A stretch of 64,000 nucleotides of DNA from Chrysomallon squamiferum (taxonomy: Eukaryota > Animalia > Mollusca), in contig CM022671.1 in NCBI GenBank assembly GCA_012295275.1, forward strand, positions 1,240,001 through 1,304,000, written 5' to 3'. Below are positions 4,298-61,636 of the stretch, in pieces. Made by a program: the position numbers and the translations under genes. The notes under the pieces are model-generated. The model searched no databases and was not told where the DNA came from. It worked only from the letters and a program-made list of their open reading frames with translations. The stretch's first letter is position 1. Every line of letters begins with the position of its first letter.

Positions 4298-4342
<45 letters not shown>

Positions 4343-4707: not shown

Positions 4708-4744
<37 letters not shown>

Positions 4745-4977: not shown

Positions 4978-5016
<39 letters not shown>

Positions 5017-8222: not shown

Positions 8223-8306
<84 letters not shown>

Positions 8307-27749: not shown

Positions 27750-30700
27750 CTATTTTTTTGGTTTAATACAACGATGTAGTGATTTACAGGTTGGACTCAT
27801 AATAGTTCCCATTCCAAATGACTGCTCTGGATTTTCTTGCTTTTTTTTCTGACTGTTGACTGGTTTTTTCACCATTTTCTTGGAGCTGCCAGCATGTCTG
27901 ACTTTCTTCACCACGTACTGAAGACAACTTTCAGGATACCAGGCTAAGAGGCCTGACGTCTGGCCTAGACTTGCTGGTGCACTTTGAGGTTTCTTCTTCT
28001 CATGTTCAGTTTTCTTGTCTGTCAACTCCTTGTTGCCTTCCATTCGAAGACGCTGGATGAGCATCAGGGGGATCTGTAAGCTGAAATGAAAAAATGTTAT
28101 TTAGCAACATCCTTGACCTTTGACATACAGTGTTGTAATTTACCTTCATCCTCACATTCACTGTACGTTACTGTTATTAGTGCAGTAAACCATTGTTATA
28201 AAAATATATGTATATTATTAGTATAACCATGGTATATTTCTTCATGCAGCCTTCGCTGTATTGCCCCCTTATACAGAAAAGCCATCATTTTCCACCTGAT
28301 ATATTACCCAAAACATTACTGCACAGAGAACACTTGTTACAATGCCTCTCTTTTACCCTGTCACTATACAGTGTACCCCCACCTTTCACAATGTGCAAAT
28401 ACACATGTAACTGAAACTTTGTGAACACTGTTCTATCAGCTTTCAGAATAAAAATATTTTTAATAGTTTAATATTATTTATGTTTAATTATTTTAAATTC
28501 AGTTGTATATTGTGCAATGCTTGTTTGTGCATTGTGTGAAGATATTTGTATGTATGTACAAATGTGTTCTTGTATACATGCTTATTTGTGTATGTCTGTA
28601 TGTTTCAAATATGAATGTGTGTGTAGGTTAGGAAGTTTATGGATATTTGTGTCTATTTGAAAGTGTTTGTGTGTATTTGTGTCTGTACAAATGTGCATGT
28701 ACACTGTAGTTGTACTATCAGTATGAATGTGTCTTTAGTTGTGTGTGTGAGTTTGTGTATTGTGTGTGTGTGTGTGAGAGAGAGAGTACACATGTGTGTT
28801 TGTTAACTTACTCAGGGGAACAGCTAGGGTTTTGGATGATTCCAGGCCCTTGATATTTATATGGAGATTTATCATCTTTACTGGTGAGGTCAGGAATTGA
28901 GTCATCTTCTTTGTGGTCACCTACTTGAATCTGGAACATGTCATTTAGCCGAGTTAGTGCCTCTAATACTACTACTAGAAACAGCACTGTTATATTTAAT
29001 ATTAATACTACAAGTAGGGGAGTTAGTGCCACTAATACTAGTACTAGAAACAGCACTCTTAATACTACTACCTACAATTTCAACTATTACTGTTACAAAG
29101 TCTTCTATTAAGACTATCAATAATAATATTGCTGTTATTGTTAGCAATAGTAATAATAATAATAATAATGTAAATAACAGTAATAATAGTAATAATAAAT
29201 AATAATAATAATAATAATAATAAATACTAACAAAACACTAAATATGTAACTTACTTTGTATATGGCATGTGCTGGTAAACTAGCTGATGGCAGCCACATG
29301 CTGACTTTTTTACTGTTTTCTAACACAGAAGATTTCCGGTTGTCTTTGTGTTTTTTGGAATGCTGAATGCTGTACCCTTTAATATGAAAACAGTCATTTT
29401 CAGCCAGTTGTCCAAAATTTTTTCTACCTGTAAAAGAAGGATTAAAACTGTATTTAAAAACAGAATAATATCTTTTTCATAATCACTATTATTGCTACAA
29501 TTATTACTCCTGAATTTTCTGTGGACATATAAATTATTATTATAATGATAATCTGTTATATTTTCACTACTGCAATGTCAAAAATTTAAATAAATATATA
29601 TTGGCACTATTTTTAATTATCATTATATTATAAGGTTTCTACTTTGGTTCTAAATAACCCTAAACAAAGAACTCGTATGTAACATAACTGATTGGAAAGG
29701 CAAAATTATATCCTTCACAAATTAGTGCACACTTGTTATATTATTGTCAAACTTTATTATTAGCAAAGGCTGAACTAAAAATAAGAATTAATAAAACAAA
29801 TATTTCCACAATTATTTATACATTTTTGAAAAGAAAGAAATAAACTTAATCATTTGGAAATACACATACAACATGTATTTTACTGTAAAAAGGTAGATTT
29901 GAACAAGTAATATTTTACAAAGTGTTTACTGTGAGCAACTTACGTGACTGGATTGTCCTGTTGCGTAAGTTAGCCTTGTCATCAGACTTGAGAGTTCCAA
30001 CAGACAGTGAGGTTTTAGCACTGATGTCTGGAGAGCTTTGAGTTGCATCCTGAACACTCAAGCTTCCTAACAGAGGATACTCTTCACTTTTACATCCTTT
30101 TTGGGGGTTCTGGTTGGAACAGGAAAAAAAAATGTTTATTAAAAATCTGGGACTGACAAATTCATGCAATGAGACAGTAACCGAATTTTGTTTAATCTGT
30201 TCTTGGAATTCAATGAAACAAACTGAAGTTGTGTTTATGATACATTTTTTGGTTTATTTTATCTTATTTTAAATTATTTTATTTAAATTTATTATTGTCA
30301 AAGTACTCGGAAGAAAAAATTAATAACATTTAATGAAGCTGTCTAGCAAAATGAGAGTGTTTAATTTAGATTACAATGAACTCTAACGACCAACTAATCA
30401 CGCTGACAACAATGGGAGTTTCTCTTCTTTTATTTTTGTTCAGAAAACTGTTTCTAGGCTGGACGACACGTACCACAGACTTCAGTCTGCTATGCTGCTG
30501 TGACACAACTGTGGTTGTGCTGGCTTCTGATGGCATGTTCTGAGTAACCCACACATCTTTTATTAGCTCAGCCAGGCAGGGGCGAAGTAGTGGGTTGTAC
30601 TGAAGAACTGAACGGATGAGAATTCTGAGGTCTGTGACAAAATAAAATTTACGTAAATATGCGTGTAACATATTTTATTTCAATAGGGAAATTATATACA

Positions 30701-31944
30701 CACATATATGTATGTATATATGTATGGATATTCATGTTTGTATGTGCAGGAGTATGTATATATGTGTCTGTGTATGTATGTGTGTATGTATGTATGTATG
30801 TATGCATGCATTTATATTTCTATAAAAGTAGGTCTGTGTATACAAGTGTTTCTATATTTCTGTGTATGTTGTGCATGTGTGTGTGTGTACTTCCACAGAA
30901 TTTTACTTTTAACAGGCTAACAAATTTTGATTATAAAATAAATAGAAAAACCTTTCAAAGGCCCTGTCACTGCTAATTACTATGTATGTATGTATGTACA
31001 TCTTCTTCATCTTGTGTGCACATGTATATATATTTATTTGTGTATGTGTGTGTGTATTTGTATTTTTGTTTTTCCATGTGTGTCTGTTTGTTTGCGTGTG
31101 TGTGTAAAAAAAAAAAAATTCTAGAATAAATGATTTACCATAAGAAACACTTGGATCAAAACTAAGTCTCTGCATTTTCATATTTCCATCCATTTCATCA
31201 AGATTCCTGTCTTCAAATGGCAGCTTACCATTGGCCATAGAAAATAGAATAACACCTCTGAAATAAATAATTAAATAAATAGGAAACTTACTGAAAATAA
31301 TCATAAAGCTAAAGTAAATATTGGCTCCAAACATATATACATAATTCTTTAAATTTTGTTAATTATTAATTAGATTCAGGAAAAATATTTCTATAATAAC
31401 AACAACAACAATAATGATAATGATAATATATAACAATAATAATAATAATTATTATTATTATTGTTGTTGTTTTTACTAACTAAATAATATTTACAAGCTC
31501 CAAATAAGAACAATAATGACAATGATTGTTGTTGTTGTTGTTCTTCTTCTTCTTCTTATCATTATTAGTATAATAAATAAATAAATATTTACAAGCTCCA
31601 GATATCAGCCTTGAATCCATCATAGAGCTTGTGTTTGATGACCTCTGGTGCAGAGTAGGTGTAAGAACCGCAAGGTGTCTTCAGAAAACGATTTCGATCT
31701 GTGTACTGGCAGGAGAAACCTAAATCTGAAACAGTGTGCAGAAAAGAACTGTCAGTGAGATAGTGGATGTACCATACGTTTCCAAAACAGTTAAAGATAT
31801 AAAAATCTAAAAAGTAATATTCTAAACAAAATTTTGCATGTGAAAGTTTTGCTGTTCCAATATTTTAACAATAATTAAAAAAAGGTTTCTTTTCCTAATT
31901 TTTTTTTTTTTCTTTATCCTGATTTTATAACAGTAAAATAATGG

Positions 31945-31982
<38 letters not shown>

Positions 31983-33799
31983 CAATAACAATAACAATAA
32001 TAATAAAAACAACAACAACATTAATGTACCTGTTATCCTCACATTCATATCATGAGTCAACAGTATATTTTCACACTTCAGATCTCTTTACAAAAAGAAA
32101 AAAGAAATGAAAAAGAAATCAATAATAATAAAAATAATAATCTATTTAACATATATATAACAGATTCTGAATATAATCTGGTTTTAGTTATTTCTGTTTA
32201 TTTATCTGAATTTTATTTTGATCAGTTTTCTTTTAAAATATTAATATATTGTGCTAAAGGATCCTTCTGGTTTATATTTACATTATCTATAATCTTTGCT
32301 GCTACCAGGTTCCCTAGAAACCATTTTCTGAAGCCTGACTCCCTACTGTGTTCAGACCTGCTCATAGTCAGAAAAAATACAACAGTGCCTTTTATAAACC
32401 AACTTTTGGAAAGACAGTACTCAAAGAACACAGGATATTTATCTACTAACTTTTCGAACCATGTGCAGACACTATAATCACTAAGATATTTAATGCTTCT
32501 CTGAGGTTCTAACAGGTTTGTCAGCTCATTCATTTGTCTGTTAGTTCATCTTATAATAATATGTTATAATTTAAAACAAATATGCACCTATGAACAATGT
32601 TGTACTTGTGCATGTGCATCAAACCATGACATATCTGTCTGAATATCTTCCTGCTCAGACTTTCATCCAGACCTTTGCTGTGTCCGGTGTTCAGATTGCT
32701 GTTAATTAGATCCAGCAAATCTCCCTTCTCACAGTACTCCAACACAACAAAGACATGATCAGAGCTCCAGAAGTGTTCAAATATCTGAATCTGAGACGAC
32801 TATTGCTTATTAATGAATGAATCAACAAATAAATAAAAGTAAGTACATGTTCTTTATTTATTTATTTATTTAACGTTCTAAATAATAAAAAAAAATATAT
32901 CATTTAAAAAAAAAGGGTTGTGTCTGAGACATTAAACCACTGCTCAGCAAATGACCACAATGGAACTATCATTTCATACGATTTTCACTTAAGTGTAAGA
33001 AAAGGAAAAAAAAAACTTACAACGTTTGGGTGATACGGCAGTAAGCAATGGTTAGACAACTCTCTGGGCAAAAATCTTTGCAGAAACTCTCGTGGTATGA
33101 CTCGTTTATCTATAATTTTGATAGCAACCTAATAAAGAAACCAATAAATAAATAAATTTTACGATTTTTAAAGAAAATAAACATAATAAAGTAACTATAA
33201 TTTTCACCGGGATATTAACAATCAAATGATATTTTGTTATCCACGAGTTGAGTAACTTCTGAGCCTAACAAGGCCAATATGATGAACTTATATTTGTTGC
33301 TGTTGTTTTATCTTCCTTAAAACACTATTTTATTTTCTGCAGTAAAAATTATTTGTTTTTTTTTTTCAAAGATTTTGTTTCTGATAAAAAATGTCACTAT
33401 TTAGGTAGCGAAAATTTACACACATGCACTCACTCACTAATACAATTTTTTTGTCATTTCTGTTTTACATAAAAACAAAATAAATACCAGCCGATTCGTT
33501 TCTTTCATGCCACGAAAGTATGATTTTAGCTTTCCAACCTTCCATGACAGAACTTGGGCTAGTCTCACTTTTGCGTATTCTCCTTCCCCCAACTCATTAT
33601 TCGTAAGCCTGTAACCATGAGTATAGCATTCTTTTACCAAGAAGGCTTCTTGTTCTTGGCCGAATCCAAGAGACGCCAGCCTGTTTCTTGCATTTTGCAT
33701 AGCAATATTGGTTGTCCTTTTGTAAGGCAATTTAAAGAGATGATTTTTCTTTTTATCACCAATTTCATAGATTCCATGGATGCATGTTACATCCTCCAT
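27750..33799 (-). CDS. TSSK5: testis-specific serine/threonine kinase, TSSK5-like, ~649 aa with long C-terminal tail
   Basis: Exons (- strand): 33799-33488, 33128-33021, 32790-32588, 32085-32030, 31725-31593, 31257-31139, 30631-30402, 30109-29944, 29427-29255, 28930-28812, 28080-27750. Total 1950 nt, open frame. Motifs: GEGEYAKV, VAIK, FLPREL (TSSK hallmark), HRDLKCENILL, DLG, TPCGSYTYSAPE, ADIWSLGVIL, GKLPF. ECYTHGYRL, the insert before VAIK and GDLLDLIN...GLDES resemble TSSK5 as recalled from memory. Kinase call is firm; TSSK5 subfamily is less so. Confidence 0.85.
28950..29070. repeat. ~69-bp tandem duplication in TSSK intron
   Basis: GAGTTAGTGCC(T/A)CTAATACTA(C/G)TACTAGAAACAGCACT appears twice (~28951 and ~29020). 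Confidence 0.8.
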
Positions 33800-33834
33800 T
33801 TTATATACAATAAAATTAAATTACTGCACTGGGA

Positions 33835-37727: not shown

Positions 37728-39072
37728 ATGGACAGGCATTCATCTTCCGACCGTTTTTCTGGATTTGGAGCACAACAACATGTGCAAGTGCAAAGAGCAG
37801 GTTTGTTGAAACAACAGCGTTTTTTAAACATTTAATACTAAATTAATTTATACAATAAAAACAAACAAAATTAAAATTTGTTGAAACAACAATGATTCTT
37901 AAATACTAATACTATTTATGGAATATAAATTTGCCGCAACGACAACATAGCTTCTGAAGTCCATTTGTCTTTCTTTACTGAAGAATATTAATAAATCACA
38001 TTATTTAAGTGAACATTTGTTATTTATTCAGATTTATATGTGTTAGCATTTTAAAGTATAAAATAATGAAATTTAATGTATGACCTATGTTACCAGATAC
38101 AGATCAGTGCTGGTTTTACATGACATTAATGTACTGATTGCAGCTTTGATTAAGATTTATAATATTTGGTAAACGGATTAATTAGGCCAATTGTTTTTGT
38201 TACGGTATTTATTTTTGATTACAGAATCAAGTACATCGTTCATATCAAGAGAAGAAATGATAAATAAAACAATGAATCAAATAAAAAGTTATGCTCCTTC
38301 AGAATTCGCAGAAATAACGTCTAACATGAAACTGAAAGAACAGGTGACAAAAGAAATTACCAACGTACACGAACTAACAATGAAACTGTCCCAGGAATTT
38401 CCGACCGGTCGTGAATACAACCAGAGAGAAGTTGAACAGAAAATGAAAAAGATTTTCTCTGACGAACAAATCCGACGTATCAAAAGAGGTCTTCAGATTC
38501 CAACTGCCAAACTGGATATGAGTTCAGACTACCTAGATATTACGATCTTCGACAGTGATCGAATTGAATCTGTCCTTTTACGGAAGCAACTGGCTACTTT
38601 TGCTGAATTTGGAAAGTACATTCAGAAATCCAGCGTCTTGGTAGAAGCTCTGTTATTGTTTGCTTCAGTGGCTGAAAAAGTACCATCTTACTCATCGGAG
38701 AGCATGAAGGATGCCCTGGAAAAAGGTGTTGATTTCATTAAAACGACTGGGGGAATTTCCTCAGCCTTGATGAAATGTGTGGAGAGTTGGACTGATTCTG
38801 GTAACAGCATTTGGAAGAAAGCTTATACTTTAGCAGAACTGATGGTGGATTTGTTCAAATCTTCCTGCGCAGTGTTTCTCGATATAATAAAAAGCCTGTT
38901 TAAAAACAAGTCATCAGTGGAATGGATAATGTGTTGTGTACGCCTTGTCGCCTTCTTCGGATCATACATTAATCCACTGGTTCCAGTAATAGCATCCGCT
39001 GCCGCCGATGTTGCTGATTTCGCACTTAAGTTCAAAAATGTCATGATGTTAATAAATGCTTTGAAAAAATGA
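37728..39072 (+). CDS. uncharacterised, predicted alpha-helical protein, ~306 aa, two coding exons
   Basis: ATG 37728; exon to 37800 (phase-1 donor GTTTGT) joins acceptor TTACAG|38225 in frame with the 293-codon ORF ending TGA 39072 (921 nt total). A likely upstream non-coding exon ends at 37537 (GTAAGT). Confidence 0.75.
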
Positions 39073-40662: not shown

Positions 40663-41417
40663 TTATTTGTCCCTGCTTGTATTAGAACATGGACACGCAT
40701 GTACACTGTGACTTCTTAATGAAGAAAACCACTTGAATCTCTTGTCACACTTCAGACACTTGTGTGGTCTCACTGGCTTGTTGTTCTGGACGTAACATCT
40801 CAGGTTATTGTGGTCCAGTAATGATGACCTCCACCTGAAAGTTTTATCACAAAACTTGCACCTGTACTGCTTCTCCCCGTGTTTGCCCTTAACATGCTGT
40901 TTGTAGATTTGCAGAGAGGTGAAAGATACTGCACACACATTGCACACTATCTTCTTCAGGCACTGTTCAAGGTGCTTTTGGAGAGCTGGGTTATGTTTGA
41001 ATCCTCGGCCACACAGATGACACAAGAAACTGCTGGAATTTTCTAGAAGTTTTGTGTGTATCTTCATATGCTTCTCCAGATGGACTTGGTCATAGGTTTT
41101 ATAAAAGCAGACGTAACACTGGAAATGTCCCACCTCGTCGTGCCATTTTATTCTGTGTCTTCTCAGACTTTGTTTGGTGGTGAAGGATTTACCGCAGGTA
41201 TCACACAGGTAGCTGCTGCTTCTGTGGACTGATTTTATGTGATTTTGGAGTTGTGGACCATCTGCAAAATGCTTCTTGCAATAGGAACAGAGAGGATTTT
41301 TGAGAAAAATTTCATGTTTTCTTCTTATGTGTATTTTGATGCTGAGGTATTTTTCAAGGCTGACTGCATAATCACACTGCTTACATCTGAACATGGAGCC
41401 CTCTCTCTTGACATACT
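40663..41417 (-). CDS. C2H2 ZF gene 2, alternative terminal exon J (8 fingers, 3 of them C2HC)
   Basis: Acceptor TTTCAG|41417 is phase 1; in-frame join to donor 43867 gives 600 aa; own stop at 40663; AATAAA at ~40612-40607. Confidence 0.8.
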
Positions 41418-42544
41418 CTGAAACAATCACATTTATGTAAGCAATTACAAAAGTCATAAATAAAAATTGGTTTAACACCCTAATACAACTTCGTATTAAC
41501 AGTTTTTTAACTGTACTGTGAGTGGAAACCTATTATAGCAACAGGGAATTTTTTATACGAAATCTCACAAATACAATAACAAATGCTATGACTGACTTTG
41601 TCTCTTTGATAGTAAACCAGTTGTCGGATATTGGCTGGAAAAAACAGATACTGAAAAAGCCTCAAAAAAATATTATGTAAAATTGCATGAATTTCATTAA
41701 ATCCCTGAATAATTAAATTTCATAAAAAGTGAATAATAAGATGAATTGTAAATTCACTGACACCTTTCTGCCATAAAAAGTAAACGGATTGCTCAGTTTT
41801 GTTTGCATTATTTACACCAGTGGCAAACTGATTGCAAAAACATTTTTAACCATTTAGTCATTATGATCACTGGTATCTTATAACTGCTGTGAGAAAGAAT
41901 TCAACTAAATTGCAAATTTAATGATTATAATTAAAATCTTGACTGCCAAAGTTAAAAAAACAAAAACAGAAGAAAACATTATTTTAAATTTCAAGGTTTA
42001 CAAGTTACCTCAACATATCAATGGAGCTCAATATCCACATCTTTTTATTTATACATTTAACTTCTTTATTTATTTGGTCACTATTAATGAACACAAAAGA
42101 GGTATCTTATTATTAGCGTAACCATAACATGATTATATGTGTAAGTTTGGAAGACAGCAAGAAATGTAATTATTATAAATTCTCCATGTTTCGCAATATT
42201 AATACCACACTGTATACCCCTAAAGTGTTACTGCTAATGCATTAACAGATTATTAATTTTCAGTCTACAAAATATGCATAAAACCAAGTTACTAAGATAA
42301 AAATTGCTTTAATTTGAGAAAGCATGAACATAATCAGTTAAATAAAATACTGTCAGTATGTATAAATAAATAATAATTTCCTTTGTAACTTTTCAATTCA
42401 ACAGTAAAATAATATTGCTTTTGGAAATGCATAATTGGAATTAATGTGTGTTTATAATCTCCCAAATGATTTTTCATCATAATACAGATATTATATTCAT
42501 AAAGTATATTATTAATAAATGATGGTTAACATATTTTGTTCTGT

Positions 42545-43488
42545 TCAGTCCATGTATTCAATCACAAGAGACTGATACTGGATGCCATTCTCTGCCAAAA
42601 TGTCCTCAGCATCTGCTTCTATTTTTATAGTTTGAAAAGAAAGAGTAGGGCATTCTGAATCTGGTTTTGTGTGATTCTCTTTAACATGCTTTTTCACTTG
42701 AAAAGGACGAGCAAAACATCTATCACAGAATTTACACTGAAATAAAAGATCATGACTGTGAGTGATTTTATGTCGAGAGAGATGAGAGGATGTCTGAAAG
42801 TCACGTGAACACACATCACACTTGTACGGTCTCTCTCCTGTGTGAATTCTTTCGTGGTTCTGAAGTGAAATTTTCTGAGAGAATCCTTTTCCGCATGTGT
42901 CACATTTAAATGGTTTAGTTCCCAGATGAAGACGTTTGTGAATCAACAGACTTGACACATGTGCCAGTCGGACTCCGCAGACGTCACACACATAGTTCTT
43001 TGTCTTCGTGTGCACCACAGTGTGCCGGTCTATGTCTCGCTTGCGGTAACTTTTAAAGGAACACAAGCTGCAGAAAAACTTGGGTTCCATGTTTTTGCTT
43101 TTGCCGAGATGGACTCGGTTGTAATGAAGATACAATCCCTTTCTGTCGTAAAATCTAGAAGGGCACGAATCACACAAAACATTTTTCTCACCCAAATGCC
43201 GCAGCTGGTGAGATTTTAGATATTTTTTTTTCACAAATATTTTCCCACAAGTCGGGCATGAAATGGCTGAGTTAGTTTTGGATTCGTGTGTTCGCTGATG
43301 CTGAATAAGAGCAGGTTTTGTCTTTATTCTTAGTCCACATACTTTACATACGTTTTCATTAGCCTGAACTGGGTGAACAGTGATATGATCCACATATTTA
43401 CTCATCTCTTCAAAATGTAAATTACAAACCGCACAAACAAACTTCAATTGAGATGTATCTGAATTTTCACATTTGTCAGTGGAATTGT
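42545..43488 (-). CDS. C2H2 ZF gene 2, terminal exon I (9 fingers)
   Basis: Acceptor TTTTTTCAG|43488 is phase 1; join to donor 43867 gives 663 aa; TGERPY and LGTKPF linkers; stop at 42545. Confidence 0.88.
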
Positions 43489-43866
43489 CTGAAAAAAGAT
43501 AACTTGATGTTACTATTTATGTTGTGGAATTTTCAGGATTGAATCATCATCTTATCGTTGTTGTTATGCATTATGATATACAGTGCTTAGTGTTTGAATA
43601 ATTTTAATCCTACTTCATCATACTGTATAGAAGCCTGCACAGTTCTTACTTTTTGAACTTACCTCTTGCCATATGTGTATTCATTCAGTTTATCAATACA
43701 AAATAAATTTCCATGTCAGAAGATGAATCAATTATATAATATTCATTAATCTTTAACAAAGAATGAGAGAGGAAAGCAAAACAATTAAAAAGCCAACAAC
43801 ATGAAAATAAAAAGGGACAAAGAAAATAAATAGCATTACAAAAAGAATACTTCTTTTTCTTCTTAC

Positions 43867-45424
43867 CTTCGTTTTCAGTTTGAAATTTTTCTATTTTGAT
43901 ACTAGTACAGTGTTTATTTGTCACACTAGACATTTGTTCTGCTTGTTCTCGTACACTTTCTTTTTCTTCAGTAATGTTGAATTTTTTCTTTGTTGGTTTT
44001 TCTGAAAATTGTCTTATTGATTTCAGTGACTTAAGGCCAGCTTTTCTTCCTCGCTTAACTGAAAATTGTTTTGAAGATTTATATTCTGTTTTCCTTTCAG
44101 TAATTTCTGAGCCCTTTTGTTCAGGAGATCCACTGTCCTCGGCTAAATCTGCAGCATCATCATCTGCTGATTTAGTTGAATTATCTTTTGACGTCGTTTT
44201 GAAAGATTTCTCATCTGCAGTTACAGATGATAATTTTACTGCTTTGTTTGAAGTATGTTTTCCTGATTTCAATCCAGCATCTTCAAGACCAACAAACTCC
44301 TGAGAACTAAGCTTCACAGGTAGTCTTGTATGTCTGCCAGATCTTCTGACTCCACTAGTATCTCTTTTTTCCCTTTTACATCCTTTTTTCACCACATCAT
44401 CAGTATTGTCAGTATGTTCCGATGAACTAACCAGTATTGCAGAATGAATTGTACTCGGTGTTTTTTTCATCTCTGTATTTTCTAAACTGTTATCTGTATC
44501 CTCTGAAGATGCTACTGTTTGAGTTAACAGAAGTTCAGCATCAGAAGAATTACACACACCTGCTCTTGTTTCAGATTCAAAAGAACTAGACAAAGCTGTG
44601 GAATTTATTTCAGTTTTCACTCCACTGGTATCCTCCACATGACTGTTTCCTGGGTCAGATTTTCTTCCTTCCAGAACAGAATTACTTTCCAGTCCACAAG
44701 ATATGACTGTGAAAAGTTTGCTGAAGAAGTCGTTTATAACAGATTTTTCCGGACTTTTCTCAGGAAGTCTGATGTAATCTTCAAATGATTTTATACTGAA
44801 ATAATTCAAAGAAAAAATATTTTAAAACTAAATATAACCAAAGAATGTTTAGGGCTACCGAGAGAACAAATTATAAATAATGTTTATACAAAAATGTTTT
44901 TTAATGTAATTTTTAATGATAAACACAACTCAATTTTATATAAGAAAATGTTTCCTTCAAATAAATACTTTGTAATAATCTCTAGAATTTCAGAACTGTA
45001 TTCAAGATTTACAAACATTAAAAATATAATGTAAACTAAAGGTAACATTAACTGATGTTGTAAACATAAATTAGCATTATTCCAGACCAATACTGTAACA
45101 ATTTTATCAAAGAAAAATAAATTTCAAATCATGAGGTCTTTATAATAAATATAGAGTTTTTAATTTTAAATGTATTTAGCTGCTGACAAAAAAGAAAATA
45201 TTAATTTAATAGGCACATTGAAGGCCAGCTACATAACTCAATTATTGACCACATACTAAATATTTTATTACTGAAAACAAAACAAATCTGAAAGCATAAA
45301 GTTACCAGTTATACAGCTGTATAAACAATGACATCTGTTTACTGGCATCAAGATGTGTAACACTCTGTATTTTAGAAAACTCAGCAAGAATATTCTGCTC
45401 AACAAAAATAGCACCAGTCACCAT
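43867..45424 (-). CDS. C2H2 ZF gene 2, shared 5' coding exons (N-terminal domain plus Ser/Lys/Glu-rich linker)
   Basis: Exon 45485-45306 (ATG 45424; MVTGAIFVEQNILAEFSKIQSVTHLDASKQMSLFIQLYN; phase-2 donor) and exon 44795-43867 (phase-1 donor GTAAGA). Probable non-coding first exon ending 46095 (GTAAGT). Confidence 0.82.
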
Positions 45425-47482
45425 AGCTGAAATTCAGTGTTGATTTAGCATTTCAATGCACTTCATCAGCAAGATATCATTCTATCTACAAAAATATAAT
45501 AAGGATATTTAATTGCTAAGATTTTCCATTTGCAAGAATCTATTCACCAGTTATAATTAATGTGTATACGTAACGTATGTGAGTATCTCGATTATCAATG
45601 TGACAGAGCGTAAGTAATAAGTTTATTCAATACTACGTTTATTCAGTTTATTGTATTAGACGAAGTATTGAAGAAGGCTCTGATCATTTGTTTATTTTTT
45701 TACGTTTAAAGTAAATTATCTTCTTATAGACTTATGTCTTTATAAAATTACTTTATGGGTTTCAAAGTAAAATGACATGATAAAATTGAGTTACTTCCCC
45801 TATGTTATAGTATAATTATAGCCAAAACACACACGCACACATGCACGAACGCCAGTGCACATAGGTTTATACATCAAAATCTTAATGACTTTTAACTGCA
45901 GTGCATGCAAGTATTTAAATACAGATAAATACATAAAATACATCAATTGTGTTATAAGTTTTGTGTCATTTCTTAACCATCGATGATCGAAAGTCTTCAT
46001 ATTTTGACTTCAGTAAAAAATTGTATGATATATTCCCAGAAAATATAAGTATTATGAAAAACAACAACACAACTTAATATCCGAATACACTTACCCAGTT
46101 TTTAAAATGAAAAGCACGGTTTAAAATTCAATAGATCTAGAACTCCATTCCTTTAAAACCTACCAAATGCAAGATTGTTCTGTTATTTTCCACCTTGAAT
46201 TATTAGGCACCGGAAAAATAAATTATAACGAACGTTAGTGATAATGGTTGTTCAGAATAGTTCAATATTGTAAAATGTCCTCTTTTCGACGGTTATTTCG
46301 AAATTTTTAATTCACTTTGTTATATATCAGGAATGTTACTGTTTTTATTAATATTAATTTATTGCTGTTATTATTTCCCCATTACTTTGTTGTTCACAAT
46401 AATCTCTGATGCAGATCACTCTGCTAGAATGAAACCTAAATTAAATAATATTAATTATAAATAATAAAATATTAATCTATAATAACATATTTTTTAAAAA
46501 ATGCTTTGTAAATTAATTTATTATTCGTCTTTAATAAGTTTTTAAAATAAAAATAACATATCTGTTTCCTGTGAAACTCAACTTTGTTTTTTTTTTCTTT
46601 AGTTGATGTTTGGATTTTTTAAATCATCTGACAGTCATTGCTTCTATGCTTACAGTCAGTGAGTAAGTAATTAATTTAAAATGAACAAAAGAGAAAACTA
46701 CTAACCAATAAAATAGAACAAATACTCTGTCTAAAGCTATGTATAATAATTCATATTTATTATTTAATGTCTGTGTGTATATACTTTCTGTGTTCACTGA
46801 TAAAATGTATATCGAGGAACACTGCATACAAAATGCAATTTGAGTTTTGTTTTGTTTTGTTCTGATCACCTGCTATTTCATTTTACATTCTATTACAGGT
46901 AAGAGATTGAATTAATCCTTGTTTGGTTGCCATTTCATTTTCCAGCCTGTTCCCTTTACTGACAACATATCTATAGGAAAAATAAAAGATTCTTATTTTT
47001 AATCAATTGGACAGCAATGGGTTTTTTCTCTCTTGCAGTCATTTACATGAAACAGGCCTTGACAAATTAACATCATGTTGTGTTAAACATTCACTCTCTT
47101 GGCTGATTTTGTGTGTCATAAAAAAAAAAAACTGAAGAAAAATACTGTTCATATAAAATTTATCCTCCATTCTTTTTATTTGTCTGAAAACTGATAACTG
47201 TATTGCCAATACTTGGATAAAACAACAGACTTTAAACTTTATCAACAATTTTATTAACATTTGATTTTATGACAAGTTAATTTTTTTTTTTAGGTCTTAA
47301 TGCACTATTAACACAGTTCTCCGACATTTTTGGGGTAGTTTTTAAACCATTTAACAGGCTACAAGTTCTGCAGTTATACAATTTCAATGTACAGATAAAT
47401 CTAAGTTTGTCTTTGTTAAAAATTTAAATAAAAAAATAAATAAAAAAAAACAATAACAAAAACCCCAAACAGCAACAACAAG

Positions 47483-47533
<51 letters not shown>

Positions 47534-50068
47534 TGATAATAAAAATAAAATGTTATTATCAACTAGCATTAAACTTGTGCACATGAACAATTGTTTCTTT
47601 CTACCAGTGGAGCCTAGACTCAATCATTTACTTATTGGTCAAATTATCAATATATTATAAACCTGCTTAAAAAATATATAATAAAAAAAAAAAAAAAACC
47701 TGCTTCTTGATAATAAGTAACTATGCACTGCATGTTAACAAATATTTAACTGATTTGACATTTACATAAATATATGAACATAAATTATTACTTTAAAATA
47801 ACATCAACTCATGAATCTACATAATATGTAATAATGAATATGTCATTCTCTCTGAAAGTATGTAATTAGTTTCATTTGGCACATATTGGCCCAGTTCCCT
47901 TAGGGTGAATACTTTTATTTCTTTGAATCTGATTTTGCTTCTAAGACCTTGCCAGAAATGAAAGCCATGCATATAAATCAAATACATCAGTGTAAGATGT
48001 AAAGATAAACACAGTTATGAGATATTTTTATTTGAATTCAGAATTATAAAATAAATACAATAAAGAAATCCTTTTTAATGGAAGATAATCCCATGCATTA
48101 TACTCTCCCATTATAACAGCTTCATCTTTTTCTGGAACCTTCACAAAAAAATTAGTTGAGACTGTAGCAAACTATCACAGACTTATGTTTGGTGAATGTA
48201 TTGAAAAATGTTATTATTTTAATAAGATGATATCTTCAATGACATTTATTAAGCATATAAAATGAAGAGGAAGAAAAAACACGAACACATATAGATCTTT
48301 TGCAGCCTACTCTGTTTAATGTAAAAAATATAATGTGAAGTCAGCATCAGCAAAATAATAAGAATGATGTAAAGAGACATTACAACTTCTTTCTGGAAAA
48401 AGATAATAAACACACTGCAATATAATGTGACCAAATCATACTCGGAAGAAACGGATAAAAAATTGTGAAGCTAAGAAATGTCTTTATGGAAAAAAATAAA
48501 AAATAAAGAATGATGTTTTACAAGAAGGAAAGAAATAGAGAATATTGTGGCAGATTCTATCAGAAAATGAAATCAAAGATAACAGCACTCATGTGTGGAT
48601 TTGTTTTCTCACTGAAAATAGCAGTAATGCTTTCACCTACATGGCTGTAAGTACATTGAGGCAAATAAGGCAAATGGCTCATACTGAAACTGATAATTAT
48701 TATTTTTTATGTTGATTTTTTTGGTTTAGACAGATTTTATTTAAAAAATATAAAAGATGTCAGGAAATGGCAAGAATTGAGGATTTTGCATCATATTGTG
48801 TTGATGTCACTAATTTATTTTATTTTATTTTACTGTTTGCTCTCTGGCTCCTTTACTAAAGACAAAGGAAACCTCCCCAAAAAGCAACAACAAAAAACTT
48901 AAACCTTCCAAAAACATGCATAAAATAACAATACTGCAGATAACTACATTGTTTTCAATAAAAACAAGTTGAGTACAATAACTGAAACTTAATTTTCACA
49001 TCCAGCTTGATTTCCTTGGTATCATCATCCTGCTGTTTCTGATGTATAAAAGTGACAGGTGTAAAAGCAGTAGACTCAGAAAAATACAAGACTAAAAAAG
49101 TAACAGATTATGCAGGATGTTATCCAGGCATGTATACAAATATATATCTCATCAAGTTAATTATTTTCATAATTTTGTGTTTCTGTGTTATAATTTGGCT
49201 ATAATATTCCATTCACATAATTATAAAAATGATAACAGAAGTTTTCTCACACCTATCAGTAATTTATGTGTCTGATTATCCTAATATGACTCGTTTATGT
49301 GTTAAATATTTGTCAAAAATCAATTTTTTTTGTAATTTTAATAACCCAGAAATACTTTGGAGTCAGTATTTGGAAACACTTTCAGTTTCACACTAGATCT
49401 GGAAACACATCCACACCAACAAAATTTCAAATACCTAAGGCAGCAAAGTAGACTTGCCGCTGGCAAAGAGAAAATACAGACAACATAATTTGGGACCCAT
49501 ATACATATAAGCTTCATCTATATTTTTGTGAATAATAATTTATAATTTATTATCAAAGGTAAACAATGTTTACACTATAATTTACCAAATTATGATTTAT
49601 CTCTACTTTCAAATAGTGCATTTTCACCCACCCAAGAACACATCAATTAATTATATTGACTGTTTCAACCATCCCTGTTTTGTGTACCTTGATTAGAAAT
49701 CTATGTAAAACAAAATACCTCTGACAAAAACTATCATAGGTTTTATTAAAATAGTCAAATGTTTGCTCTAATAATAAAAATAAAACAATAGTATTAGTAG
49801 TAGCAGAACAGTAGTTGTTATAGTGGAAGTGATAGTAGCAATAACAATAATAATAGCAATGATGATAATGATAAAAACAATAAAAACAATAAAAATAATA
49901 AAAGATGCCAGGAAATGGCTAAAATAAAAGGAAAATATTAATCTGTAATAATAAATATAAAGTAGGAGGTTAAACCATACACAGATTGATCTCATGAGAA
50001 ACACATTAAATGATTATCTGAGTTTTGATAGTCAAAGTTTTTAATCCTACAATCACACTTGTAAATGT

Positions 50069-53000
50069 TTATCCAGCCTCTTCTGCTTTTTCAGTTTCCT
50101 CCACATTAGCTGGCTCATCGTTCTCTAAACCATCCCCACTGCTGTTCTCCAACTTCTTATTTTTATCACTGCTGTTATCAACACTTCTATCATTGTTCTT
50201 ATCATCATTATCAACAGCTTCTTCTTCTTCTTCTTCTTCTTCCTCTTCCTCGTCATCAACAGCATCTTCCAAATCACTTCCACTGTAGTAAATGTCATCT
50301 TTGGCTTCCTCTTTGCAGTGGAATTTGGTGATGTGTTTTGTGAGGTGTCTTTCCAGGTAGAAGCTCATGTCACACTGTGGACAGCTGTGGCGTTTCTTTA
50401 TCACATTTGTTTTGGGGTTGGAGTTAGAACTGGATGTATTCTTCTGTCGGGAGTGAATTTTCATGTGTTGTCGTCTGCTGGAGAGTTTTAGAAATGTCTT
50501 ATGGCAGATGTGACAGGTAAATCTTTGTCTAGTTCTGAGACCTGGAAGAGAGGTAATAGTTACCTAATATTATCAACAACTATTAAAAAATAGTAAAAGT
50601 TATGCTTATAATGTGCTTTATTATTTGTAAAATACTGCTTTGTTAAAAGATTGAAAGTTAAAAAAAAAAAGATACTTAGGCTATTAACTAAATTACCTGG
50701 TAACTAATTTAACATCAGTTTTCAATAAACCATGCAAAAAAACACAACAATAAAACCTAAAAAACCAAAACAAAACAACAACAAAAAAGCCTAAAAGAAA
50801 TTCTTTTTTTTTTTTTTTTTTTTGATGCATCATAATGTTATCAGTACAACAAAGTATATCATGCTTCAACAGCAATGGACAGATGGAATGATTTTTTGTA
50901 TTTTATAGTTAAAAAAGATTGTTATATCTGGAGTCAACAAAACATAAAACCAGCAAGTGCTTACCACTTTTATCAACTTTTCTGTCACATACGTTTTGTT
51001 TGACATGCTTGTTATATAGATCCTTTCGGTAAAATGATTTACAACATATGTCACACTGAAAGGGCTTTTTCCCAGAATGCAATTGCATATGCCGTGATTC
51101 ATTTGATGCATTATGAAAATGCTTATGGCATATTTCACAAGTAAAACCACTATCTTGATGTATTTCTGAAAGTTACAAATACAAAGCACTTGTTGATTCT
51201 GTTTTGTTCCACCATTTGTATTCAAATAACGATAATCCAAATATTTCACTCAATGAATGAGAATACTTAATGATATTTTGGCATGAAACAGTACACCAAC
51301 TATTACTGAATGTTACCAGTAAGTGTGTAATTAATATTTTAACTGGCCTAATAAAAATTTAAAAATTAAATTTAAAAAGTAATCTGATAAATGAAAATGT
51401 AAAACAGTTATTTATTATAATTGTTTTTAAGGAACTCAGTTAAAATGCAGTGATTATCACTAGAGAATGGGGCAATTTGGGGTAATTGTTTTCAAAATAT
51501 ATTTTATATATACATGCATACAAATGCAACATATTGTTTGTCCAAAATTGTTTATAACCAAAAGAATAATTTGTGAAAGGGAAATCCTCTAGTTCGTTAG
51601 TTTTGTAAATGAATTAAAAATAAATTCTCCCCTTCCCAAAACAATAAATATAATGACAAAAGTTAAATAATAATAATAATAATAATAATAATAATCATAA
51701 TATTAATCATAAAAATACTGAAAAATATTAAAAAATAAATAAATAAATAAATAAAAAAATAAATAAAAAAAATAAAAAAGAAGAACCAATAAAATAAGTA
51801 GGACAAGAGTACATTTTCTCACCTTTTTTAACAATCTTTTCACAGAGGTTTGCTGCCAGGTGTCTGTCGTACACATCTTTACGATGAAAAGATTTATGAC
51901 ATTTTTCGCACTTGAATGGTGTCTCCCCAGAATGCAGTCGCATGTGTCGTGCTTCGTTAGATGCGTTTCGAAACCATCGTTTACAAATTTCACACTTGAA
52001 GCCACCATCTTCTTTTCTCTGCAGACGCTTTATTTCTGAAAATCAATGCAATTTATTTGATTAGTTATTTTAAATAAACATTCAGCTTCTTTTCTGAAAA
52101 TAATGTAAACCATTTGTTCCCTACTTGCTTTAAGTGCATGTATATCTGTAATATTTTTATATCTTTATATTTGTTAAAAGAAGCAAAGGGTTTCCTGTAT
52201 ATAATCACAACTTACTGACGCACAATACACCTTGCAAATATCCTGCCACTTCCCGCCAGAAAATGGAATAAACAGGTAACTACAACAAACTTGGTAAAAC
52301 ATTTCTATAACATGTTTATAAATAATTTCAGGAGCTTACTTTTTACACAGATGTCTTCTTTGATGTGTTTGGTGTAACTCTCCTTCCTATTAAACTGTTT
52401 GTGGCACTTCTCACACTGCCAGGGTCGTTCTCCTGTGTGAGTTCTCATGTGTCTGGCTTGATGGGAGAAATTTCTGTACCAGCGGTGACAGACCTCGCAA
52501 GTAAACCCGTCTGGCCTCTTCTTTCTCGAAGGACGGGGTTCTGAAAGAAAGCAAGAACGAAATAGGTAAGTTGTGGCACATGCAGATATATGATCTTCAT
52601 GCACAGATATCAATCACACATGCACTTGACTCCATATTGTAATGTATTTTGAATACTTTTAGATATATAGGTAAAAAAAATAAAAAAATAAAAAAAGTAA
52701 ATCAATCCTGCCTTTGTTTATTTTCAAGTAATTATATAAAATACATTTAAAATAATAAAAAAAAGTAATATTTTAACTTTAAAAGAAAGAAAGTGGCTTC
52801 TACCTCAAGACATTCCACATCTATATATATTTTCAAGTAAATATTTTAACTTTTTGTTCACATCATTTGAGGAACACATTAAATTAATTCTGCTGTGAAG
52901 TTCCTACCTGTGTGTATTTTCATGTGCAGTTGTCTGCCTTCTTCTCTGGCAAAACATCGACCACACTCATCACAAGAAAATGGTTTCTCTCCGGTGTGTG

Positions 53001-53585
53001 TTCTCATGTGTATTTCTTCATAACAAGGCCTTCGAAACCACTTGTGACAAATAGTGCATGTAAACCCAGACTGCTTCTTCTTCTTTCTCTTCTTTGGCAC
53101 TACCAGACCTAGGTGTAAATAAAAACATGCAGGTTAAGCATTAAATTATATTCAAAAATATTTTTTTCAATTGTCTGTAACAGGTAACTGTCTGCTAGTT
53201 TTGATTCAAATTTAATATAATTAGTATAAATGCACTATCAAGCAATATGTATGATCTAATATATGTAATGCATAATTAACACACACACACACACACACAC
53301 ATTTATTTTGTATCAAATTTTCGAAATAAATTCATTGTTTCAAAAGTGCAAAATCCAGAGTAGTGAAACACTTCCACAATTTCCTTATTTTAGTTTTCTT
53401 ACCTGCATGTATTTTGAGGTGAAATTTCAAATGATCCTGTCTCTGGTAAGCTTTTCCACACTGGTCACACTTAAACGGTCTTTCCTTTGTGTGCACGTAA
53501 GCATGTCGCCTGGCATGTGAAGCACGGTATATGTCTTTATTGCAGATTGTACAGTAGAAAGACCTTGCCAGACGTATAAAAATAC
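50069..53585 (-). CDS. C2H2 ZF gene 1, multi-exon terminal module (6 exons, 2 fingers each, acidic tail)
   Basis: Exons 53585-53403, 53108-52908, 52540-52340, 52035-51823, 51165-50965 (all phase 1-1; 183, 201, 201, 213, 201 nt) and 50541-50069 (stop; poly-Glu tail). Joined to donor 60610 gives 756 aa. Confidence 0.82.
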
Positions 53586-54635: not shown

Positions 54636-55174
54636 TTAATTTATAGTCTTCATCACATGAACAGACCGGAGATGTCTGAAGAAATTTGACCGACATGAAA
54701 ACGTTTTTCCGCAGGTGGCACACATGTAAGGCATCTCTCTTGTGTGAGTCACTAGGTGTGTCGCAAGTTGTGACGACTGAATAAACTTGCGTCCACAGGT
54801 CTTGCACTGGTGAGGTTTGATCCCTGTGTGCTGGAATCTGTGCCGTTTGAGTGAGCTCTGAAAGGAAAAGCAGAGTCCACACACTTCACAAACGTGGTTC
54901 TTTGTCCCTGAGTGAGTTATGTAGTGATCTCTCAGATGCATTTTGGTTCGAAACGGTCGGTTACAAACACTGCACCGGAATGGTTTCACTCCCAGGTGAA
55001 TGAGAATGTGTCTTGCCAGTGTGTCCTTTCTTGTGAATTTCTTACCACACTCATCACATTTAATTTCTCTAAGACATGCTTTCTGGTGCTGTTTGATTGT
55101 TCTCTTTCGGTAACAAACTTTGTTGCATTTGCTGCAAGTATATTCAGTTCTGTGTACTTTCTGGTTGGTTTTGT
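54636..55174 (-). CDS. C2H2 ZF gene 1, alternative terminal exon B (6 fingers)
   Basis: Acceptor TTTCACAG|55174 is phase 1 and extends the 117-aa ORF upstream by two more fingers; stop at 54636; join to 60610 gives 445 aa; AATAAA at ~54402-54397. Confidence 0.82.
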
Positions 55175-56827: not shown

Positions 56828-58614
56828 TTATACAGTAGATGTATTCAGTATACTTTGGTTGTTTTCGTGCACTTTTCTTGTATGTTTAATCAAACAGGTT
56901 TCTGTTCTAAAGATCTTTTCACAGTTATCACATTTATGTTGTTTCTTATCAGTGTGTGTTTTCATGTGACGATGCAAATCATAAGCAAGATGATAACGTT
57001 TATCACAGACTGAACACTGGAATCCACAAGTCTTAGAGTGTCTTGTCAACATATGTCTCTTTAGAGAATATTCAAAAGAAAATTTCATCCCACAACATTC
57101 ACACATGTGATCCTTCTGTCCTGTGTGTACCACTGAATGTTTATTCATGTAATTTTGAGTGTCACAGACAAAAGGACACCAAGGGCATTTCAGTTGTTTT
57201 TTCTTTTTGACACTTTCAGTTTGATGAACCTGAAGGAAATGCTTTACAAATCCTGTTCTGGATGTATATAACTTAGAACAAACGTTACAAGTGAAACTGG
57301 ATCGAGTAGGATTGTGAATTCTACTGTGCTGAGTTAAACCACCTTTGAAGTGAAAGTATTTTCCACAAACCTTGCAAGTATAGACAGTGTTATCTGAATG
57401 TGTCTTTTTATGCAAGTTTAGTGCTGATACTGAAAGAAAGCACCTATTGCACTGGTCACATTTGAAGGGTTTGTAATTGATGTGGGAGGACATGTGAACT
57501 CTAAGACTGGATTGTCTTGGAAATGATTTATCACACTGGCCACACTGAAAAGGCAGAAAGCCATGATCATTCACCTTGTGACTGACCAACGTTGTCTTTG
57601 TAGTAAAGAGCTTGTCACAAAACTTACAAGAAAATATATTCACTCTTGATTGATTACTGCTACTCTCATCCACAGAAACACAGATCTCATTTTTGTGTCT
57701 TTTAGCAATGTGTGCCTTTAAGGTGTACTTATTCGCAAGGCACTGCTGGCACCAATAACACTTAAATGGCTTTGCACCTGTGTGTGTTCTCCTGTGGCGA
57801 TTAAGTGAGCTGTTTTTAGAAAAGCTTCTGTTGCATATTTCACAGACATATTTGTATACTTTAGGATCTGTGTGAAGTTTTTTATGACTGATCATAGATG
57901 ATCGTTCTGTGAAAGACTTTTCACACTGATCACACTCATACGGTCTCAAGCCAGAGTGAACCTGAACATGGCTCATCAGCATTTCTTCTGTGTCAAACTT
58001 GCCATCACAATACCTGCACTGATGTTTTAGAATTCTAGACCTCTTAGTTTTCATTACAGTTTGGGTATTTTTCAACTCTGGTGATATCCTGCTATTATTT
58101 TTGTGTTTGATGTCTAATGAATTTCTCTCATGTGATGCCATATTTGAATTACTCATCTCAGGAGTGTTTTTATTTGCTTCTGAATTAGATGAAATGACAG
58201 ATCTTTCATGAAAGTGTATGTGTCTGTGTCGACTAAGAGTAAAACCTTTAGCAAACTTTTTCCCACAAATATCGCAGAGGTACTTGAAAGCACTTTCACC
58301 TAAATGCAGTTTTTTATGGGCGACTAATGATGATCTTTCTGTAAAAGTCTTTTTACATTTTATACAAACATACGGTTTGAGACCTGTATGAGTTTTTACA
58401 TGGTTACTGAATTTCTCAAAGTCACAAAACATGCTATCACAAAATCTGCACCTGTGTTCTGACAAAGGTATGTCTTCATTAAATGTAATGTAATATTTCA
58501 ACTTTGCTGCACTCTGGTTATTTACTTCTGATTCTCTCAACTGTTTATTTGCTTCTAAGGAGCTGCAAGGAACTGAAGACAGTCTGGACTTTGTCTCATT
58601 ATCTTTGTTCAGTT
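56828..58614 (-). CDS. C2H2 ZF gene 1, terminal exon A (16 fingers)
   Basis: Acceptor TTGTTTCAG|58614 is phase 1; 16 C2H2 fingers counted in the 601-aa ORF; stop at 56828; join to 60610 gives 861 aa. Confidence 0.9.
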
Positions 58615-59959: not shown

Positions 59960-60215
59960 TGCAATAGAGATATGTATTTTATTATTTTTTAAATAAAACC
60001 TTTGTATAAAAAAAAATTTAAAAATTAAAAAAAATAACAAAAACATTTGGGATTTTCAGTATGAGGTATTTGTTTCAATACAGTTCTGGCAATAGAGATT
60101 TATATTTTATATTTTTTAAATAGAATCTTCGTATAAAAAAAAATTAAAAATAAAAAAAAATTAAAAAAACATTTGGTCATTTCAGTATGAGGCATTTGCC
60201 TCAATATAGTTATGG
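59960..60215. repeat. ~128-bp tandem duplication in ZF gene 1 intron
   Basis: GCAATAGAGAT...GTATAAAAAAAAATT...ACATTTGG...TTTCAGTATGAGG(T/C)ATTTG...TCAATA appears twice. Confidence 0.8.
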
Positions 60216-60609
60216 CCATGTATTCATAAGGCTATTGATAATTTCATTTTTTTTAAAAAGAAGAAAAAAGCCAAGTCTCATGCTTAGCAACCCATGTGAA
60301 CATGTTCAATGTATTCCAGATGGCTGCAGTTTGAAAAAAAGAACCTAAAAACAACCAGTTAACATAATAGTGTGACATTAATACAATAGTTTAAGTAGTA
60401 AATACCAAAGGTATTCAGTAGAAACCTGCTATGATATACTCTAGAATATGCTAGGCATAAAATATAAACAGCAATTATAGCTGACTAATTAAAGTTTAAA
60501 TCTTTATAAATATGATTATTACAAAAAGAAATCCCTATTCACTACATTATAACTGGGTTCTACTCCACAATTTAATAAAAAGAAATTATAACATGCATGT
60601 ATAACACAC

Positions 60610-61636
60610 CTGATTTATCCAAAATTTCATCTTTTTCTATTGGAATGCCTCTATCAACTTTTGACCGGTATGGGCCACGTTTTCTACCAACGTTTTTAAC
60701 TACTTTTTTCACCATTTTATTTTCCTCAGTATTGCTGCCTATCGATATACATCCTGATGGAAGCAGAACTTCATCAGCAATGTTGCCTGACCCTATTTCT
60801 TGGATGTTAGAAGTCTGCAAAATCATTGATGTCATATCACAGTCATTGTCACTTTGTTCTGGGGGTGCAGCTTCAAAGAATGTTTCTTCCAAATTATGAC
60901 TGATGTTCTTGGATGGAGATACATCTGCCTGCACAGAAAATGTTGTCAAGGCAACAGCTTCAGCTGGAAAAGCTGCAGCATCTGATTGTTCTTGAGGAGC
61001 TATATGTTCTGTATACAACGACTGTGGAATTATGGGATTTGATGGGTCAATTTTTGAAACTGCTTTGTTTAACACTGATACTTTCGGGTAGTCCTGGTTA
61101 TCAGTCGGAACGCTAGGTACTGTCGAAGGTTCTAATGAATCCTCTGTTTTTGGAACAACCGATGCAGTTGACAATGGGCTGCTGTAATCTGATGCAAACT
61201 TCTTGAAAACATCTGATAAGACAATCGTGCTGTCAGCATCGAGATCATCCCTGTCAAGTTTCACATGAACTGACTTGACACTGAAATAACAAATTTTACT
61301 GTGAAAGTAATTTACAAATGAGAATTGATATTCAATAAATAAATAAATAAAAAGTATGGAAAGACTAATAAAGTAAAAATGCTCACAGTTTTAACACTAG
61401 TATATGTAAAGCACCTCTTCATTTTATGACATATGATCAAATCATATTATGAAAAGAAACCAAAAAAAAAAAAAAAAAAAAAAAACAATAGAAATGAGAA
61501 TATTTTACCAGTGGTACAGTTGAAAGAACTGTTCCATTTGCATATCAACATCAAGATTAGTTTCATACTGAATGGCCTGGAACTGTACAAGAATGTCATG
61601 CCTGACAACAAGCATACAATTCCCGTTTTCAGCCAT
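60610..61636 (-). CDS. C2H2 ZF gene 1, shared 5' coding exons (N-terminal domain plus linker with basic GRKRGPYR motif)
   Basis: Exon 61661-61509 (ATG 61636 in context AAGATGG; MAENGNCMLVVRHDILVQFQAIQYETNLDVDMQMEQFFQLYH; phase 2) and exon 61280-60610 (phase-1 donor GTGTGT). Probable upstream exons 62060-61921 (in-frame ATG at 62012 possible) and one ending 63121 (GTAAGT). Confidence 0.82.

What the first reader, a model, noticed from the sequence alone, without database searches (positions are those of the whole stretch)
40663..46100. Adjacent paralog repeats the same constant-plus-alternative-terminal-exon architecture
Seen: gene 2 has the same layout as gene 1: a phase-2 N-terminal domain exon, a large linker exon with a phase-1 donor (43867), then two different stop-containing finger exons, I (43488-42545, 9 fingers) and J (41417-40663, 8 fingers), both phase 1 and only 1.1 kb apart. 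The linkers and finger arrays are not visibly alignable between the two genes. Inference: the architecture is a conserved family feature while the DNA-binding modules turn over. Since all acceptors in both genes are phase 1 on the same strand, read-through or trans-spliced cross-gene combinations (gene 1 5' end to I or J) would also be in frame, as with mod(mdg4)/lola trans-splicing.
Basis: partly seen in the sequence, partly recalled or inferred. Interest (0 to 1): 0.7.

Follow-up and report, generated by a model that had tools for sequence, protein, structure and literature searches.

The report
Snail zinc-finger genes with swappable ends
Two neighbouring sea-snail genes share a small unnamed front domain; one is spliced to either of two different zinc-finger endings and the other likely to three, so each likely makes several DNA-binding regulators, as the fly gene lola does but from unrelated parts.

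Summary
The layout is real. Gene 2 (minus strand) has an N-domain exon (phase 2), a linker exon with a phase-1 donor at 43867, and two stop-containing finger exons, I (9 fingers) and J (7 plus 1 atypical); both joins are in frame. RNA contigs show 43867>43488 in 3 of 3 RNA runs laid and 43867>41417 in 1 of 3, both GT-AG; the DNA-like run shows neither. The N-exons of genes 1 and 2 are 17/40 identical. The vent snail Gigantopelta aegis has annotated gene-1 isoforms that diverge exactly at the donor matching 60610. So gene 1's finger modules are kept between species rather than turned over; they differ only between the paralogs. The N-domain is not BTB, ZAD, KRAB or SCAN by Pfam; a ribbon-helix-helix-like fold is an unproven lead. 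Trans-splicing and gene-1-to-I/J chimeras were neither shown nor excluded; shared phase alone does not argue for them. No gene-2 ortholog was found. Verdict: a lola/broad-like alternative-last-exon design on a non-BTB scaffold in a mollusc; new variant of a known kind, interest 0.5.

The parts
46095..46146 (-). Gene 2, 3' part of non-coding first exon (5' end not determined)
   Evidence: joint 46095>45485 with GT-AG ends in run X1, 52 letters on the shorter side
45306..45485 (-). Gene 2 exon with ATG at 45424 and the unnamed N-domain; phase-2 donor
   Evidence: joint 45306>44795 in X1 and X3, 11-nt loose end matching it in X2
43867..44795 (-). Gene 2 constant linker exon (309 aa, S/T/K/E-rich, basic patches); phase-1 donor
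   Evidence: (no Pfam family)
43655..43664 (-). Strong extra 5' splice-site motif inside the last common intron (GT at 43662); possible poison-exon donor or U1 decoy, untested
   Evidence: only minus-strand AGGTAAGT in the window; no joint there
42545..43488 (-). Gene 2 alternative last exon I, 9 C2H2 fingers, stop; AATAAA at 42074/42070/42049
   Evidence: joint in 3 of 3 RNA runs
40663..41417 (-). Gene 2 alternative last exon J, 7 typical + 1 atypical fingers (three end in Cys), stop; AATAAA at 40612
   Evidence: joint in 1 of 3 RNA runs; depleted of variants relative to the adjacent intron
61509..61636 (-). Gene 1 N-domain coding exon part; phase-2 donor
   Evidence: 86% identical to G. aegis XP_041349548/52 N-terminus
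60610..61280 (-). Gene 1 constant linker exon; phase-1 donor
   Evidence: 52% to G. aegis, whose isoforms diverge right after it
56828..58614 (-). Gene 1 alternative last exon A (16-17 fingers)
   Evidence: 45% over 609 aa to G. aegis isoform X1
54636..55174 (-). Gene 1 predicted alternative last exon B (6 fingers); no RNA or ortholog evidence obtained
50069..53585 (-). Gene 1 third ending: six two-finger exons C-H, all phase 1
   Evidence: C/D/E 90-92%, F 74%, H 50% to G. aegis isoforms X3/X4

Best explanation
Gene 2 is a zinc-finger gene whose constant exons (unnamed N-domain plus linker) are spliced to either of two stop-containing finger exons, I or J, likely by ordinary cis choice of last exon, giving two proteins predicted to bind different DNA sites. 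Shown: both joints, frames, stops. Inferred: use of the proximal I end follows from cleavage at poly(A) signals behind I, and J is used when the transcript runs on 1.1 kb and I is skipped. Gene 1 is an older tandem paralog built the same way with three ends. Inferred: the N-domain is a shared self-association or cofactor module, so isoforms and paralogs could combine different finger arrays; new ends arise when a downstream phase-1 finger exon is captured by the constant donor.
For: Joints 43867>43488 (X1, X2, X3) and 43867>41417 (X2; 57-nt record, 28 letters on the J side, GT-AG), absent from the DNA-like run X5, whose 4369-nt contig runs through these introns. Neither I nor J has an N-domain copy in front (tblastn finds only the two N-exons). 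J is constrained: 4 listed differences in 417 nt (3 of 4 synonymous, one E>D) against 33 in the next 425 intronic nt in X5, Fisher p 7e-7. All parts are co-linear on one strand with AATAAA behind each end. G. aegis RefSeq isoforms X1 and X4 share 277 residues and then continue with orthologs of A or of C-H. Predicted base-contact residues differ between I and J.
Against: The J joint rests on one short contig in one of three RNA runs, all from one study; X1 and X3 hold J contigs that stop short of or run unspliced past the acceptor. Contigs cannot tell cis from trans or show 3' ends. No gene-2 ortholog was found (0 of 5053 candidates; 2 hits of 5 candidates, both gene 1), so gene 2's layout is not shown to be conserved. 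No joint of gene 1 was tested in this organism. DNA binding and the role of the N-domain are untested.
Confidence: 0.82

Rival explanations
1. The finger exons are transcribed from their own promoters and trans-spliced to the constant exons as in mod(mdg4)/lola, possibly also across genes (gene-1 constant part onto I or J).
For: All acceptors are phase 1. Gene 2's 378-nt last common intron holds the only minus-strand AGGTAAGT of the window, like the U1-binding TSA motif of mod(mdg4) and lola (PMC4387717 passages). Unspliced RNA contigs lie just upstream of I (X1, X2) and J (X1). In X2 the J contig begins exactly at the acceptor AG, as at a graph convergence, yet bin depths leave room for no second laid record: a second upstream partner may be hidden.
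Against: No exon is on the opposite strand or out of order, which is what exposes trans-splicing at mod(mdg4) (PMC4667647, PMC12692577 passages). Gene 1's 1995-nt common intron has no U1 match of 8 nt or more, and such matches occur at 0.27 per kb. The motif is also explained as the donor of an 88-nt stop-containing exon. Unspliced pre-mRNA or a removed short tip explains the contig ends. No loose end at either acceptor among 15 of 46 shown.
Confidence: 0.1
2. I is the real last exon; J is a separate small gene or an orphan exon, and 43867>41417 is occasional read-through.
For: J joint in only 1 of 3 RNA runs; J's open frame extends 38 codons upstream of the acceptor and holds a Met; unspliced RNA upstream of J in X1.
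Against: J contigs have depths like those of I in all three runs (flat contig values, weak); J lacks an N-domain; the region upstream of J is highly variable in X5, including two of the listed differences within 10 nt of the acceptor region and 33 in 425 nt; the ortholog of gene 1 shows that this family does keep several ends.
Confidence: 0.08

Closest known systems
Drosophila lola and other Tramtrack-group BTB-zinc-finger genes (PMC11426971, passages read)
   Same: Constant N-terminal part joined to alternative C-terminal DNA-binding exons; lola has 20 isoforms, 17 with different C2H2 ends.
   Different: No BTB here; TTK-type BTB is reported as arthropod-only; here 2-3 ends with long arrays (6-17 fingers) and one multi-exon end; trans-splicing not shown.
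mod(mdg4) (PMC4387717, PMC12692577, PMC4667647, passages read)
   Same: Common exons plus variable 3' exons; a strong U1-type motif lies in gene 2's last common intron.
   Different: mod(mdg4) uses BTB and FLYWCH, has over 30 isoforms, own promoters for 3' exons, some on the opposite strand; here C2H2 arrays, all co-linear, no promoter evidence.
Gigantopelta aegis RefSeq 'zinc finger protein 665/271/431-like' isoforms X1, X3, X4 (XP_041349548/9, 551, 552)
   Same: Ortholog of gene 1; isoforms diverge at the same junction; X4 also lacks one internal two-finger unit present in X3.
   Different: Automatic annotation only, with different names per isoform; no gene-2 counterpart found.
Lineage-specific N-domain C2H2 families (KRAB, SCAN, ZAD; recalled)
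   Same: Small N-terminal module on its own exon, long linker, finger array in one large exon, tandem paralogs.
   Different: No Pfam match to any of them; those genes mostly have one finger exon (recalled).

Membership tests
Tramtrack-group BTB-ZF (lola, broad, fruitless) | N-terminal BTB domain | tested here: not met
   0 Pfam families for either N-exon, the linkers gave no BTB, and the 79-aa G. aegis N-terminus gave none; conserved region is about 79 aa at most against ~110 aa for BTB (PMC4667647 passage)
Tramtrack-group BTB-ZF (lola, broad, fruitless) | Constant exons spliced to alternative finger-encoding last exons | tested here: met
   both gene-2 joints in RNA contigs; G. aegis gene-1 isoforms
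mod(mdg4)/lola trans-spliced loci | 3' exons joined in trans from independent transcripts | not testable with these tools
   only assembled contigs were available; needs phased long reads
mod(mdg4)/lola trans-spliced loci | Conserved U1-binding pseudo-5' splice site in the last common intron | tested here: inconclusive
   8-nt match in gene 2, none in gene 1; conservation across species not testable
mod(mdg4)/lola trans-spliced loci | Some variable exons on the opposite strand | tested here: not met
   no C2H2 exon on the plus strand of the window apart from one chance pattern inside an intergenic stretch, and none below 40663
KRAB-, SCAN- or ZAD-ZNF | KRAB, SCAN or four-cysteine ZAD domain | tested here: not met
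   no Pfam hit; gene-2 N-exon has no Cys, gene-1 N-exon has one
Ribbon-helix-helix proteins | beta-alpha-alpha fold | tested here: inconclusive
   AF2 gives strand 7-9, helices 13-26 and 30-41 at mean pLDDT 52 but helix-helix only for gene 2 (pLDDT 69); Foldseek lists Arc, Reg576, Rv0300, DndE, CopG only at E 3.5-9.7 (their RHH label is recalled); VIA best Z 4.7 to unrelated folds
Ribbon-helix-helix proteins | Intertwined dimer with a two-stranded sheet | not testable with these tools
   needs a deeper alignment or experiment

The most novel reading that the evidence does not exclude
Molluscs have their own lola-type system: a family of C2H2 factors on an unnamed, possibly ribbon-helix-helix-like dimerising N-domain, whose finger ends are joined in trans or across neighbouring paralogs, so that constant heads and finger arrays are mixed combinatorially at both RNA and dimer level outside arthropods.
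Probability: 0.1. Interest if true: 0.82.

Novelty: new variant of a known kind. Interest (0 to 1): 0.5.

Why it matters
The one-head, many-DNA-binding-ends design is described in print mainly for arthropod BTB genes. Here it is shown by RNA joints in one snail gene and by cross-species isoforms in its paralog, on an unrelated unnamed domain, which points to convergence and means that gene counts understate transcription-factor diversity in molluscs. Two adjacent paralogs with compatible splice phases are also a compact test case for whether trans-splicing of this type exists outside insects. Three full-text searches showed no paper describing it in molluscs; the library lacks most subscription journals and no supplements were read.

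Tried and rejected
No whole genome was held, so the family size in this genome could not be counted. Only one read-laying gave data (41001-48400), so gene-1 joints and gene-1-to-I/J chimeras were not examined directly. Homodimer prediction of the 79-aa N-terminus gave no answer (score 0.01, mark 0.32, alignment not used): no evidence either way. The search of 1.84 billion representatives was spoiled by my alignment A2, which let 402 positions including fingers into the profile; it returned generic zinc-finger proteins, and an N-only HMM over the 262 fetched proteins hit only the three G. aegis isoforms. Linker-2 search: 0 of 5053 candidates. Search with fingers C-E: only G. aegis is an ortholog among 120 listed, the rest 27-41%. 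Exon I in metagenome contigs: 232 pattern matches, none related. ESM Atlas: no usable hit twice. PDB sequence search: 0. Fold searches: nothing significant; absence shows neither novelty nor a different fold. Contig depths (24.8 vs 6 for the two joints in X2) were not used as isoform ratios: the I joint is deeper than both its flanks. Lack of RNA cover between I and J in X2 and X3 is not used as evidence. The recalled human PEG3/ZIM2 shared-exon precedent was not confirmed in the passages of PMC4196374 and is left out. That phase-1 introns are the default before finger exons in other C2H2 families is recalled; a search (listing only) did not confirm it.

Full report
Observation. The window is AT-rich animal DNA; no whole genome was held. 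A six-frame scan finds C2H2 fingers on the minus strand between 58450 and 40693 and none below. Gene 1 has the same phases and three possible ends: A, B and six two-finger exons C-H. Pfam finds only zinc-finger families in I, J, A and B, and nothing in either N-exon or the gene-2 linker.

Paralogy. The N-exons are 17/40 identical with the intron at the same position; 0 of 20000 shuffles reach the score, and tblastn finds no third copy in the window. Whole linkers do not align. The first 40 aligned columns of linker 1 are 32/40 identical to G. aegis, so the domain probably continues into the linker exon; between the paralogs this part is only marginally alike (154 of 5000 shuffles; 358 of 5000 for G. 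aegis). I and J match A, B and each other at 25-35%, the generic level.

RNA evidence. Five runs hold the stretch: four RNA runs of one study and one run of unknown kind from another. I laid three of the four RNA runs and the fifth on 41001-48400. Joints with GT-AG ends: 43867>43488 in X1, X2, X3; 43867>41417 in X2 only (57-nt record, 28 letters on the J side); 45306>44795 in X1 and X3; 46095>45485 (5' UTR intron) in X1. X5 behaves as DNA of a different haplotype: one 4369-nt contig crosses the introns and shows none of these joints. In X5 the laid part of J has 4 listed differences in 417 nt, 3 synonymous, against 33 in the next 425 nt (p 7e-7), so J is a constrained exon. Limits: contigs only, one study, a single record for the J joint; the gene-1 donor lay outside the stretch.

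Conservation. The N-exon profile found two proteins among five candidates, both Gigantopelta aegis RefSeq isoforms (a peltospirid vent snail per the listing of PMC7895826); a third came from the cluster look-up. The window's organism is therefore likely a related gastropod (inference). Isoforms X1 and X4 are identical for 277 residues and diverge at the point matching donor 60610; X1 continues with an ortholog of A (45% over 609 aa), X3 and X4 with orthologs of C-H (C, D, E 90-92%). So gene 1's alternative ends are conserved and annotated in another species; B was not among the isoforms retrieved. No gene-2 ortholog was found, which is weak evidence given word-based search, and nothing beyond G. 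aegis was found.

Mechanism. Shown: two alternative, stop-containing last exons on one constant donor. Inferred: cis choice coupled to poly(A) site use, since all parts are co-linear and AATAAA lies behind both I and J. Predicted base-contact residues differ between I and J, so the isoforms likely bind different sites. The N-domain's role is inferred by analogy only. AF2 gave strand-helix-helix for the G. aegis N-terminus at pLDDT 52 and helix-helix for gene 2 at 69; Foldseek lists Arc, CopG and similar small repressors only at E above 3 and VIA has no Z of 5 or more. A ribbon-helix-helix-like fold remains a lead.

Trans-splicing. At mod(mdg4) the 3' exons have their own promoters, some lie on the opposite strand, and a U1-binding pseudo-5' splice site in the last common intron drives the reaction; lola has a similar motif and the two can be spliced to each other (passages of PMC4387717, PMC12692577, PMC4667647). 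Here gene 2's last common intron holds a perfect AGGTAAGT, the only one on the minus strand, but gene 1's does not, 8-nt matches occur at 0.27 per kb, and an upstream pyrimidine tract plus AG at 43751 would make it an 88-nt exon with an immediate stop (sequence). In X2 the J contig starts exactly at the acceptor AG although depth accounting leaves no second laid record (8.55 expected, 8.56 seen); a hidden partner or a removed pre-mRNA tip would both explain it. None of the 15 loose ends shown of 46 lies at either acceptor. Phase compatibility does not discriminate, because all finger-exon acceptors of the locus are phase 1. I put this rival at 0.10.

Comparison and novelty. It works like lola and the other Tramtrack-group BTB genes (PMC11426971 passages: TTK-type BTB only in arthropods; 17 of 20 lola isoforms with different C2H2 ends) but is not a member: no BTB. 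It is not KRAB, SCAN or ZAD either. Searches (listings only) showed no report of this layout in molluscs; no supplements were read. Earlier unchecked notes of this scan describe the same design on non-BTB heads in annelids, a sea urchin and an insect and an RHH-like head in a sea urchin; these are leads, not support, and they suggest the design is recurrent, which lowers surprise but raises generality. Verdict: new variant of a known kind; interest 0.5; 0.82 if trans- or cross-gene splicing on a new dimerising domain were shown (probability 0.1).

Noticed in passing
window 43663-43750 (-): Candidate 88-nt exon inside gene 2's last common intron (pyrimidine tract + AAG acceptor, AG/GTAAGT donor); inclusion would stop translation one codon after the linker, giving a fingerless or decay-prone product. 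No joint seen.
   Followed up: partly
window 41419, run X2: J contig begins exactly at the acceptor AG although the 43867 joint record is its only laid predecessor; a second upstream partner may be hidden.
   Followed up: partly
window 41418-42150: The I-J gap is far more divergent in run X5 (about 8% plus indels) than 42216-45125 (29 differences in 2908 nt), which includes two introns.
   Followed up: partly
window 45440-45480 (-): Two short upstream ORFs in gene 2's 5' UTR; one is in frame with the main ATG and ends 12 nt before it.
   Followed up: no
window 50965-53585 (-): Exons C-G are tandem two-finger units, phase 1 on both sides (E, F, G 47-57% alike; F and G 71% at DNA level); G. aegis X4 lacks one unit present in X3, so cassette skipping adds a second layer of variation.
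   Followed up: partly
window ~4040-11900 (+): Exons of a DOCK-family gene (DHR-2 lobe A and lobe C hits), with a ~58-nt tandem repeat that duplicates an exon end and donor at 11180-11510.
   Followed up: partly
window ~30360-33800 (-): Multi-exon protein kinase gene (Pkinase); resembles testis-specific serine kinases (label recalled, not tested).
   Followed up: partly
window 38182-39072 (+): Helical ~270-aa ORF converging on gene 2, with no Pfam family above cut-off (best Phasin_2 E 0.0014); unidentified.
   Followed up: no
window 59961-60219: Local 130-nt tandem duplication (86%) in gene 1's common intron, with a 75% inverted copy at 48668-48758; probably a small repeat element.
   Followed up: no
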